A stretch of 64,000 nucleotides of DNA from Narcine bancroftii. Taxonomy: Eukaryota. The notes below the pieces were generated by a model, which worked only from the letters and a program-made list of their open reading frames with translations, was not told the DNA's origin and made no database searches. Position 1 is the stretch's first letter; every line of letters begins with the position of its first letter. This document shows positions 721 to 3,700 of this stretch, in pieces. The position numbers and the translations under genes are program-made. The stretch is taken from NCBI RefSeq assembly GCF_036971445.1, contig NC_091471.1, forward strand, positions 232,500,001 through 232,564,000, read 5' to 3'.

Positions 721-3700
721 TCAGCCAATCGCTGGGAGGCCAGTTGACATCACCTACCAATCGTTGGCTAGACTGCAGAAGCCACCGGCCAATTGCTGGG
801 TGGACGGCGGATGTCATCGGCCAATCGCTGGCCACACAGCAGAAGCCACCGTCCAATCACAGACATCACATTTTACTGGCCAATCTCTGGGCCGACAGGG
901 AATGTCACCGGCCAATCTGGGTGGACAGCAGAAGCCACCGGCCAATCGTTGAACAGAAAGAGGAAGTCACTGGCCAATCTCTGAGCAGACAGCAGATATC
1001 GCTGGCCAATCTCGGAAAGAGGAATTCACCAGGCAATAGCTGGCTTGACAGCAGAAACCACCAGCCAATTGCATGGTGGACCGGCTAATCACAGGGCGGA
1101 CAGCGGAAGTCACCAGCCAATCATAGGGCAGACAATAGAAGCCACTGGCCAATCACAGGGCAGACAGTGAAAGTCACAGGCCAATCTAACCAAAGGGCGG
1201 TCAACACATTATTGGCCATTCACTGGGCAGACAGGGAAAGTCACTGGCCAATCATTGAGCGGACAGCAAAAGTCGCCGACCAATCATAGGGTGGACAGCA
1301 AAAGTCACCGGCCATTTGCTGGGCAGACGGAAAGTCACCGGTCAATCGCTGGACAAACAGCGAAAGTCACCAGACAATCACAGGTGGACAGCAGAAGTTA
1401 CTGGCCAATCACTGGGTGGACAGGGAAAGTTACTAGCCAATCAAAGGGCAGTCAACACAAGTCATTGGCCAATCAAAGAGCAGACAGTGCAAGTCATGGG
1501 GGTTCCTGTGGTATTCAGCCAATCACAGGGTTCCCGTGAAGAGCGTTGGCCAATCCCTGGGGTTCTGTTGGAGGTCGTCAGCCTATCATTGAGATTCTGG
1601 TGGAGGTGATTGGCCAATCAGTGAATGCTTCCCCTTGGGGGAACTCAGGTGGTGAAGGTCAGTGGGTGGGGTGGAGAGATCTCCTCTCAGGAGGGGGGGG
1701 AGGCGGTCGGCAAGGGATCTTCCTTCGGGGGGCTGGGCAGGGAGGAATCTCCCCTTGGGGGGGGGGGGGCAAGCTGTGAGAAAGAGCAGATAGAGTGGAG
1801 GAGGGAAAAGATGATGTGAAAATTGCATGTTGTGTTAAAAGTCACTGGGTGTATGTGGTGAAAATGTTCTAAAGTGAATCTATTTCAATGCAAGTTGTAG
1901 GAAAGGCAGACAATCTAAGAGCATGGATTGGCCTGTAGAATTCTGACATTGTGGCCAGTCATGAAACTTGGTTTCAGGAGGGGCAGGACTGGCAGCTCAA
2001 TGTTCTTGGCTACCGTTAAGAACGGGAAGGATGAAAGGGGGAGTAATTGCATTGTTTGTCAGGGAAAATATCACAGCTGTGCTCAGGCAGGACAGACCAG
2101 AGGGCTTGTCTACTGAGGTTGTATGGGTGAGGCTGAGGAACAAGGAAGGTATAATCACATTCATGGGGTTGTATTGGAGATCACCCAATAGTCAGGGAGA
2201 ATTGGAGGAGCAAATCTGTCGAGACAGCAGAGAGCCGCAGGAAACATCACGTTGTGTGAGTAGGGGATTTTAACTTTCCACATATTGACTGAAACTGGTT
2301 AGGACTTTATTCCTTGGAGCATAAAAGAATGAGGGGACATTTGATTGAGATGGGGGACAGACAGAGTAAATAGGTTGGCTTTTCCCACTGAGGGTGGGTG
2401 AGATCCAAACCAGAGAACACGAGTTAAGGGTGAAAGGGGAAAAGTTTAGGGAGAACTTCTTCACATAGAGGGGTGGGAGTGTGGAACAAGCTAAAGGGAT
2501 GAATGCGGGCTTCATTTTAACATTGAAGAGGAACTTGGACGTGTACATGGATGGGAGGGGTATGGACTGGGTGAAAGTCAGTGGGACAAGGCAAAAAAAT
2601 GGTTCGGTACAGACTCGAGCTGAAATGTCTGTTTCTTTGCAGTAATGTTCCATGTGGCAAGGGATCTCCCTTCAGGGTGGGGGGGTGCTGCTTGGCCTGT
2701 CTGATTTGTCCCACCTGGGAAGCCACTCAACCGATCTACCCCATTCCTTTTTCTCACCCCTCTCTCTTCCTCCTTCCCCCCCCCTCCCCCCCAGTATCTG
2801 AGGCAGTGGAGAGGAGGTGCGAGAAGGTGGCAGAGGAAGAGGATGAGGCGAGGACGGAGGAGCGGGCCCAGACGGAGGAAGACCGGGGCAGGGCCACAGC
2901 GGCAAGGAACCTGGCCTTCCTGAAGGCCCGCTCACTGGATGTCACCTTCGAGGTGGGCGACGATTACCAGGTGCTGGAGACCATTGGCACAGGGGCCTAT
3001 GGAGTGGTCACCTCAGCCCGTCAGCGGAGGACAGGTGGGGGTCTCGTCCCCCTGTCCCCCTCCCATCTCCCTCCTCTTCATTCCCCTCCCCTTGCATACA
3101 CCCCTCCTCGTTGCCCCCTCCGTACACCCCTCCTCTGTTCACTCCTCCTTCCACCCCTCCATACACTCCTCCCTCCACCCCCCCTGTACACACCCCATTC
3201 CATCCCTCCCGTACACCCTTCCCTCCACCCCCCTCCGTATACCCCTCCCTCCTTTCCGAAAACTCCTCCCCATCACCTCCTCCCTCTGTACACCCCCTCT
3301 CCACCTGCCTCGTCACCCTCCCTTCTCCCCCTCCCCGATTTGATCTTGCACCCACCCCTGCGAGCTACCCCTCCCCAATCCGACCTTTCACCCCTGCATG
3401 CCACCCCCTCCCTGATCCCACCTTTCACCCCTGCGAGCTGACCTTTCACCCCGCCCTTGCAGGTCAACTGGTGGCCATCAAGAAGATACCGAACGCGTTC
3501 GATGTGGTGACAAACGCCAAGCGAACCCTCCGGGAGCTACAGGTCCTCAAACACTTCAAACACGACAACATCATCGCCATCCGTGACATCCTGCAGCCAC
3601 CTGGGGACCCCAGTAACTTCACTTCTGTGTAGGTGGGGTAAGGGAGGGGCTTGGGGGGGAGAGGAGGGATGGAGAGGGGGAGAGGGAGGGATGGAGAGGA

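What the first reader, a model, noticed from the sequence alone, without database searches (positions are those of the whole stretch)
721..1620. Helically phased array of more than 20 CCAAT boxes (32-bp period) just inside MAPK7 intron 1
Seen: the repeat unit is quite diverged, yet its (G/A)GCCAAT(C) core is kept. Cores recur at exactly 32 bp in long runs (725-757-789-821-853; 942-974-1006; 1117-1149-1181; 1405-1437-1469), all in one orientation, starting ~190 bp after exon 1. Established: RRCCAATCR is the NF-Y site, and ~32-33 bp (three helical turns) is the spacing of multiple CCAAT boxes in cell-cycle promoters such as cyclin B. Inference: a minisatellite may have been co-opted as an NF-Y landing array, acting as an enhancer, alternative promoter or nucleosome-excluding scaffold, and far longer than the usual 2-3 boxes.
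Basis: partly seen in the sequence, partly recalled or inferred. Interest (0 to 1): 0.7.

Follow-up and report, generated by a model that had tools for sequence, protein, structure and literature searches.

The report
CCAAT minisatellite in MAPK7 first intron
Just inside the first intron of the signalling gene MAPK7 lies an old 32-base tandem repeat whose best-kept letters spell a common promoter signal (CCAAT); it likely gives the factor NF-Y spare landing sites beside the promoter, but it is one of many such repeats in this genome and its spacing is not shown to be special.

Summary
The array is real: 29 in-register cores at 725-1618, 22 exact CCAAT on +, 19 of 28 steps 32 bp, starting 187 bp after the RNA-supported exon 1 donor of MAPK7. 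It is a single-copy, diverged minisatellite (69% mean unit identity). CCAAT is its best-kept window (6/115 mismatches against 165/636), but the support is modest once CpG decay and unit relatedness are allowed for (fixed-window p 0.004-0.05; any-window p 0.04-0.27). Phase breaks at 9 of 28 steps; the longest exact run is 5. Genome sampling adds a stronger signal: CCAAT triples lie in diverged arrays far more often than control-motif triples (19/65 against 2/48). Several CCAAT arrays abut gene starts (adenylate kinase, MSH2). Control motifs form about as many 31-33 bp arrays, so helical phasing is not shown. No binding data and no second species were available. Best reading: a promoter-edge minisatellite that likely serves as a redundant NF-Y pad under weak constraint, like the ABO minisatellite and LTR12 repeats. 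The scan has noted similar arrays before, in this genome and in another.

The parts
1..460 (.). MAPK7 promoter / 5' leader CpG island with 7 dispersed CCAAT boxes (71, 155, 212, 243, 428, 452 on -, 280 on +), not phased
   Evidence: CpG o/e 1.03, GC 0.60. Transcription start not mapped: contigs cannot show starts
511..538 (+). Coding end of MAPK7 exon 1 (in-frame ATGs at 511 and 523) and the used splice donor after 538
   Evidence: open frame through exon 4; joint to 2795 in 3 of 3 RNA-like runs
706..1097 (+). 5' part of the 32-bp minisatellite, cores 725-1085, with 27-, 30-, 27- and 20-bp steps
1099..1497 (+). 3' part of the 32-bp minisatellite, cores 1117-1469, more regular; holds four of the degenerate cores (1216, 1312, 1342, 1374)
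1498..1625 (+). Diverged tail: four cores (1519, 1550, 1582, 1614) at 31-32-32 bp with a changed spacer, 50 bp after the main array
539..2794 (+). MAPK7 intron 1; the array fills its first half, high-copy interspersed repeat DNA most of the rest (about 1790-2640)
   Evidence: joint and depth tables
2795..3034 (+). MAPK7 exon 2 (start of the kinase domain)

Best explanation
The feature is an old, single-copy 32-bp minisatellite at the downstream edge of the MAPK7 CpG island whose CCAAT core is better kept than the rest of the unit, likely because some of its boxes are bound by NF-Y and act as a redundant, weakly selected extension of the promoter. Shown: tandem origin, age (69% unit identity), position, core retention, and a genome-wide tendency of CCAAT cores to survive in diverged arrays. 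Inferred: a promoter-edge segment with one CCAAT box was amplified by ordinary minisatellite expansion, which is very common here (30% of this window is tandem repeat); NF-Y would bind a subset of the 12-18 good sites; bound NF-Y would help keep the promoter's downstream flank accessible or add to MAPK7 expression; the 32-bp step is permissive for neighbouring NF-Y trimers but was probably inherited with the unit and not tuned.
For: CCAAT is the best-kept of 32 five-base windows: 6/115 mismatches or gaps against 165/636 elsewhere and 85/402 in non-CpG columns; 6 parsimony steps in 5 columns against 60 in 19 non-CpG columns, fixed-window p 0.009; neutral simulation on the unit tree P(core <= observed) 0.004, 0.024, 0.046 at 1x, 5x, 10x CpG rate. 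No deletion in the alignment touches the core. The tail keeps core and 31-32 bp step with a changed spacer. Genome sample: spacer identity <0.75 in 19 of 65 CCAAT triple loci against 2 of 48 control (CCATT, CCAGT) loci, p 0.0005; with the threshold fixed beforehand 7/19 against 1/19, p 0.042; after dropping two non-repeat promoters and one of a homologous pair 16/62 against 2/48, p 0.003. In arrays with at least 10% spacer mismatch the core ranks in the top five windows in 13 of 23 CCAAT arrays and 1 of 8 controls. CCAAT loci have a CpG island within 1 kb in 17 of 65 cases against 18 of 217 local background sites, p 0.0004; neighbours include an adenylate kinase and MSH2. Precedents: ABO 43-bp NF-Y minisatellite (PMC7187371, passages), LTR12 U3 repeats (PMC11853044, PMC3730095, passages).
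Against: Allowing for free choice of the window, the local signal is borderline: column-permutation p 0.011-0.032, parsimony scan p 0.064, tree simulation 0.044, 0.10, 0.27. 6 of 15 other minisatellites in this window also have a five-base window better kept than a uniform rate allows (p <= 0.0025), and 11 of 15 have a best/mean ratio as low or lower (all are less diverged). CpG o/e is 0.45 in the array against 1.03 in the promoter and five column pairs show CG/TG/CA decay, so the array has probably been methylated in the germ line. 11 of 29 cores fail RRCCAATS. CpG-island adjacency is not significantly above control-motif arrays (17/65 against 7/48, p 0.17), and some called islands are LINE or internal-exon DNA by eye. 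The strict replication is p 0.08 (5/17 against 1/19). The 0.75 threshold was picked on the first set (p 0.05 at 0.80, 0.07 at 0.85). Only two control motifs were used. The promoter already has 7 CCAAT boxes of its own.
Confidence: 0.5

Rival explanations
1. A neutral minisatellite. The unit happened to contain a CCAAT box because it arose next to a CCAAT-rich promoter; the better-kept core reflects CpG decay elsewhere in the unit, inherited variants among related units, alignment anchoring and choosing the best window after the fact. NF-Y may even bind without any effect.
For: 30% of the window is tandem repeat. Any-window p up to 0.27 with strong CpG mutability. 6 of 15 control arrays show similar unevenness. 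Control-motif arrays also sit next to first exons (death-effector-domain gene L089, receptor gene L139). Numbers of distinct arrays are alike for CCAAT and controls: 20 v 18 (CCAGT) v 4 (CCATT) at 32 bp over the same stretch of genome, 16 v 14 at 33 bp, 9 v 7 at 31 bp. Many human NF-Y sites lie in inactive chromatin with no transcriptional signal (PMC3730095, passages); the ABO repeat's effect in vivo is called controversial (PMC7187371, passages).
Against: Does not explain why diverged arrays pass a triple-core filter seven times more often for CCAAT than for CCATT or CCAGT (19/65 v 2/48), nor why the best window here is exactly CCAAT.
Confidence: 0.3
2. A helically tuned NF-Y scaffold: the 32-bp period was selected to put many NF-Y trimers on one face of the DNA, as in G2/M promoters, making an enhancer or nucleosome-free platform.
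For: 19 of 28 steps are 32 bp, 3.05 turns at 10.5 bp. A review states that 33 bp between CCAAT boxes seems required for p300 recruitment (PMC9448500, passage). CCAAT triple loci were more numerous at 31 and 32 bp (21 and 20 in contigs C1-C16) than at 37 bp (6). Among 65 other CCAAT loci only 1 is both this long (20 or more cores) and this diverged.
Against: Period follows from the repeat unit. Nine steps break the register, some by half a turn; longest exact run 5; global phase coherence 0.05-0.47 depending on the assumed pitch. A control motif is as common at 32 bp; no control motif was listed at 37 bp, so the 32-versus-37 excess is uncontrolled. Diverged CCAAT arrays are about as frequent at 37 bp (2/8) as at 31-33 bp (17/57).
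Confidence: 0.1
3. The cores are kept by a binding-linked difference in mutation, repair or repeat turnover (NF-Y occupancy in the germ line), without selection on MAPK7 expression.
For: Core retention is seen in arrays far from any CpG island too: 13 of the 19 diverged CCAAT loci have none within 1 kb.
Against: No data here on occupancy or mutation spectra; unannotated promoters or enhancers could lie at those loci.
Confidence: 0.05
4. Remnant of a long terminal repeat or other mobile element that carried tandem CCAAT repeats (LTR12-like), or an alternative intronic promoter.
For: One other pair of CCAAT arrays in the genome (L098, L106) shares 1.27 kb at 77% identity, so dispersed elements with such repeats exist here. 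RNA-like contigs cover the array.
Against: Genome BLAST of 1050-1500 finds only the array itself (the tool warns that this is a lower bound); one DNA contig at flat depth covers it while flanking repeats pile up thousands-fold; no match to the other 65 CCAAT loci (one search covers the first 46; the last 19 were not compared). The contigs over the array are unspliced intron; none of the 15 joints shown (of 166) starts in it.
Confidence: 0.05

Closest known systems
Human ABO CBF/NF-Y minisatellite enhancer (43-bp unit, 1 or 4 copies, about -3.8 kb; PMC7187371 and PMC2988417, passages read)
   Same: A minisatellite with one CCAAT box per unit near a gene's 5' end; there NF-Y binding and reporter activity are shown.
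   Different: Here about 29 diverged units of 32 bp, inside intron 1 at the island edge, no copy-number variation seen in the runs laid, and no binding or activity shown.
LTR12 / ERV-9 U3 enhancer repeats (5-17 units of about 41 bp; 14 at the beta-globin locus; PMC11853044 and PMC3730095, passages read)
   Same: Long run of same-strand CCAAT boxes in diverged tandem units, the core being the conserved part.
   Different: LTR12 is a dispersed retroviral family with GATA and MZF1-type sites; this array is single-copy, with no LTR evidence.
Multiple spaced CCAAT boxes of G2/M promoters (cyclin B2, CDC25C, AURKA; PMC9448500, PMC1802594, PMC3730095, passages read; cyclin B1 spacing recalled)
   Same: Step of about three helical turns between boxes.
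   Different: Those are 2-4 boxes upstream of the start, in non-repetitive DNA where spacing is the conserved feature; here spacing is a by-product of the repeat, the boxes are downstream of exon 1, and the phase is broken often. Two true promoters of that type turned up in the genome sample (L122, L130).

Membership tests
NF-Y-binding minisatellite (ABO type) | Head-to-tail repeat with a CCAAT box in each unit | tested here: met
   29 cores, 22 exact
NF-Y-binding minisatellite (ABO type) | Flanks fit the NF-Y consensus (RRCCAATS; recalled) | tested here: met
   18 of 29; 12 of 29 for YRRCCAATSR
NF-Y-binding minisatellite (ABO type) | Close to a gene's promoter | tested here: met
   187 bp after the exon 1 donor, at the CpG island edge
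NF-Y-binding minisatellite (ABO type) | NF-Y binds and the repeat raises reporter activity | not testable with these tools
   no ChIP, ATAC or reporter data
NF-Y-binding minisatellite (ABO type) | Copy number varies between alleles | tested here: inconclusive
   no differing letter or gap in the listed contigs over the array from 6 coded runs; contigs drop rare variants
Phased multi-CCAAT G2/M promoter (cyclin B2 type) | Boxes 31-33 bp apart | tested here: met
   21 of 28 steps are 31-32 bp
Phased multi-CCAAT G2/M promoter (cyclin B2 type) | Boxes lie in the proximal promoter, in non-repetitive DNA | tested here: not met
   intronic tandem repeat
Phased multi-CCAAT G2/M promoter (cyclin B2 type) | Spacing conserved between species or required in assays | not testable with these tools
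   no relative genome held; the one other organism label is identical over the covered parts
Phased multi-CCAAT G2/M promoter (cyclin B2 type) | CDE/CHR element near the start site | not tested
   start site not mapped
LTR12-like mobile-element enhancer | Dispersed copies elsewhere in the genome | tested here: not met
LTR12-like mobile-element enhancer | LTR ends, target-site duplication, poly(A) signal | not tested
   not pursued once the array proved single-copy

The most novel reading that the evidence does not exclude
In this repeat-dense fish genome, minisatellites that capture a CCAAT box are retained as a class: NF-Y-bound arrays of 10-30 boxes form at the edges of CpG-island promoters (MAPK7, an adenylate kinase, MSH2 and others) and work as barriers that keep nucleosomes and methylation from the flanking repeat DNA out of the promoter. 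The MAPK7 array would be one of the oldest and longest members, and its decaying spacers with kept cores would record that selection.
Probability: 0.2. Interest if true: 0.65.

Novelty: new member of a known kind. Interest (0 to 1): 0.36.

Why it matters
As a single locus it is a longer, older counterpart of the ABO NF-Y minisatellite and of modest interest. The genome-level hint matters more: if CCAAT cores are kept in decaying tandem repeats across a genome, tandem amplification is a routine way to build homotypic factor clusters at promoters, and dozens of natural arrays with periods from 31 to 37 bp give a ready panel to ask whether NF-Y spacing and copy number matter in vivo.

Tried and rejected
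Orthologues: no relative genome is held; the run search gave 9 runs from 3 studies, 8 of one organism and 1 labelled as a second, whose contigs are identical to the window at 645-850 and 902-1064, so no cross-species test. No run is on record as RNA; the four RNA-like runs are guesses, though three show GT..AG joints. Transcription start: RNA-like contigs reach 512-542 bases upstream of the window in two runs and begin at 49 and 170 in two others; contigs cannot show starts, so nothing is concluded. Raw match counts (267 v 369 for the reversed control) are dominated by a few long uniform arrays and were replaced by counts of distinct loci. Lists were cut at 100 matches: 167 (32 bp), 69 (31 bp) and 40 (37 bp) CCAAT matches, and 1539 and 130 control matches, were not seen, so the samples cover only the first contigs for those patterns. 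Four loci found in two searches were counted once; second halves of long arrays (L046, L057, L075, L113) were not scored; arrays with fewer than four spare units or without the core in their consensus were left out. Indels avoiding the core: too few to test. A second conserved block (GACAG, 13 bp before the core) was considered as a TALE half-site; the preceding T is present in only 1 of 24 aligned units and the distance differs from the 10 bp given in PMC12065363 (passage), so rejected. An ETS-like GGAAGT occurs in only a few units; rejected. A second in-frame donor at 556 is possible on sequence but is not among the joints shown. Pfam gave no family for L042, L095, L099, L116 or L131. Paper searches for MAPK7 with NF-Y (2 off-topic reviews), for an intron-1 NF-Y VNTR (0) and for elasmobranch CCAAT minisatellites (none on topic among 12 listed of 43) found no description of this array; subscription papers are not searched. 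A look-up of the array among earlier scan findings by sequence was blank.

Full report
What is there. The window starts at the 5' end of MAPK7 (ERK5): exon 4 matches human MAPK7 structures at E 7e-96, well ahead of other MAP kinases, and the frame from the ATG at 523 is open through four exons. Contigs of three RNA-like runs join 538 to 2795 by a GT..AG intron. The CpG island covers about 1-700 (o/e near 1.0) and holds seven unphased CCAAT boxes before exon 1's coding part. The genome is 3.3 Gb with contigs up to 494 Mb; earlier scan notes call it an electric ray (not checked by me).

The array. From 706 to 1625 lies a 32-bp tandem repeat with 29 in-register cores, 22 of them exact CCAAT on the + strand; 19 of 28 steps are 32 bp, the rest 20-50 bp. 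Three reverse-strand boxes also occur. 18 of 29 cores fit RRCCAATS and 12 fit YRRCCAATSR (consensus recalled). Units are 69% identical on average, the most diverged of the 16 arrays I aligned in this window. It is single-copy by genome BLAST and by flat depth of one DNA contig. The listed contigs over it, from six coded runs, show no differing letter. CpG o/e is 0.45 and five column pairs show CG, TG and CA side by side, the mark of past methylation (inference).

Is the core kept? In an alignment that gives the core no special weight, CCAAT is the best of 32 five-base windows: 6 of 115 cells differ, against 165 of 636 elsewhere and 85 of 402 in non-CpG columns. Units are related, so I counted events on a unit tree: 6 steps in the 5 core columns, 60 in 19 non-CpG columns; p 0.009 if the window is fixed in advance, 0.064 if any window may be chosen. 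Neutral simulations (500 each) gave 0.004, 0.024 and 0.046 for the fixed window and 0.044, 0.10 and 0.27 for any window on the tree at 1x, 5x and 10x CpG mutability; on a star history 0.000, 0.000 and 0.006, and 0.000, 0.006 and 0.076. Against this, 6 of 15 other minisatellites in the window also have a window better kept than a uniform rate allows. So the local signal is real but modest.

Is the spacing special? A 32-bp repeat gives 32-bp spacing by itself. Nine steps break the register, the 27-bp ones by almost half a turn, and the longest exact run is five. I searched the genome for three cores at fixed steps, for CCAAT (31, 32, 33, 37 bp) and for the non-binding controls CCATT (31, 32) and CCAGT (32, 33). 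Over matched stretches the numbers of distinct loci were 20 (CCAAT), 18 (CCAGT) and 4 (CCATT) at 32 bp, 16 and 14 at 33 bp, 9 and 7 at 31 bp. CCAAT loci were fewer at 37 bp (6 in C1-C16), but no control motif was listed at that step. Diverged CCAAT arrays were 17 of 57 at 31-33 bp and 2 of 8 at 37 bp. Selection for helical phase is therefore not shown. Lists were cut at 100 matches, so several samples cover only the first contigs.

A genome-level signal. I fetched 10 kb around 65 other CCAAT loci and 48 control loci. Three exact cores in a row are unlikely in a decayed array unless the core is spared, so the share of hits with diverged spacers tests retention. Spacer identity was below 0.75 in 12 of 46 CCAAT and 1 of 29 control loci in the first set, and, with the threshold fixed beforehand (note), in 7 of 19 and 1 of 19 in the second; pooled 19 of 65 against 2 of 48, p 0.0005. 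Dropping two non-repeat promoters and one of a homologous pair gives 16 of 62 against 2 of 48, p 0.003, but the second set alone falls to p 0.08. Scoring whole arrays without the three ascertained units, the core ranked in the top five windows in 13 of 23 CCAAT arrays and 1 of 8 control arrays with at least 10% spacer mismatch; it was better kept than the rest in 17 of 23 and 6 of 8. A CpG island lay within 1 kb of 17 of 65 CCAAT loci, 7 of 48 control loci and 18 of 217 background sites: significant against background (p 0.0004), not against control arrays (p 0.17). Tool-confirmed neighbours are an adenylate kinase and MSH2; XRCC3 is weak; three other names are recalled only. Most CCAAT arrays, including 13 of the 19 diverged ones, have no island nearby. 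Only 1 of the 65 is both as long (20 or more cores) and as diverged as the MAPK7 array.

How it most likely works. Shown: an old tandem repeat at the island's downstream edge with a better-kept CCAAT core, in a genome where such cores tend to persist. Inferred: a promoter-edge segment with one box was amplified, NF-Y binds some of the good sites, and weak selection spread over redundant boxes slows their loss; the effect would be added activation or an accessible flank, by analogy with NF-Y keeping promoter regions nucleosome-depleted (10.1101/369389, abstract and outline seen). I give this 0.5, a neutral minisatellite 0.3, a phase-tuned scaffold 0.1, and binding-linked mutational sparing and a mobile-element or alternative-promoter origin 0.05 each. 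Nothing here shows binding, open chromatin or an effect on expression.

Comparison with what is known. It works like, and fits the sequence-level definition of, an NF-Y minisatellite such as the four 43-bp units upstream of human ABO, whose effect in vivo is called controversial (PMC7187371, PMC2988417, passages). LTR12 carries 5-17 units of about 41 bp with conserved CCAAT (PMC11853044, PMC3730095, passages), so long same-strand arrays are known, but this one is not dispersed. It is not a member of the cyclin B2 type: those are few boxes in non-repetitive proximal promoters (PMC1802594, PMC9448500, passages). PMC4973313 (passages) concerns a minisatellite separate from its CCAAT box and does not apply; PMC12065363 (passages) was used only for composite spacings. 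No supplements were read. Searches found no paper on this array. Earlier scan notes describe similar arrays at three other places in this genome and one in another genome; they are unchecked leads and I did not test them.

Verdict. Observation mostly right, interpretation partly supported. A new member of a known kind, interest 0.36. The bolder reading, a genome-wide class of NF-Y barrier arrays at promoter edges, is not excluded (0.2) and is directly testable.

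Noticed in passing
L005:430-1940 (G000:C1, about 11.773-11.775 Mb): A second long, diverged array of about 30-32 bp CCAAT units starts about 170 bp upstream of the ATG of an adenylate kinase gene (Pfam ADK; AK3/AK4-like is recalled). Core mismatch 0.17 against 0.30 elsewhere. Closest architectural match to the MAPK7 array.
   Followed up: partly
L102:4802-5183; L116:4703-5125; L042:4858-5183; L095:4949-5392; L099:4916-5374; L131:4939-5130: Further CCAAT minisatellites (31-33 bp) next to first coding exons: MSH2, XRCC3-like (weak, E 0.024), and by recall only TPRG1L-, EDA- and GRWD1-like exons (no Pfam hit); the GRWD1-like one is, as here, just inside the intron.
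   Followed up: partly
L098:3910-5174 and L106:4080-5275 (coordinates on the CCAAT strand): Two loci on different contigs share a 1.27-kb element (77% identity) with an internal 33-bp CCAAT repeat: a candidate dispersed element with LTR12-like tandem boxes.
   Followed up: partly
L112 (G000:C17, 76.428-76.445 Mb and beyond): A diverged 32-bp CCAAT array more than 16 kb long with no CpG island in the 10 kb scored.
   Followed up: partly
L122:4972-5120; L130:4948-5040: Non-repetitive promoters with three CCAAT boxes at exactly 31-bp steps (next to a FAM165-family gene and a MAP10_N-domain gene): classical spaced boxes.
   Followed up: partly
window 37170-38240: Another CpG-rich promoter-like stretch with 9 unphased CCAAT boxes, followed directly by a 50-bp, 52-copy minisatellite (38239-40818) without CCAAT: promoter-edge minisatellites are common here.
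   Followed up: no
L003:5218-7000 and window about -540 to 538: Upstream of MAPK7 lies retrotransposon-like DNA (a 321-aa frame that looks Gypsy-like by eye, not tested). RNA-like contigs run unspliced from about 540 bases upstream into exon 1, a long leader or a divergent transcript. The human head-to-head neighbour B9D1 (recalled) was not searched for.
   Followed up: no
window 657-708: Three GTCAC(G) repeats just before the array, one a full GTCACGTG E-box; the same GTCAC lies in each unit just before the core, a hint that the unit grew from this promoter-edge sequence.
   Followed up: no
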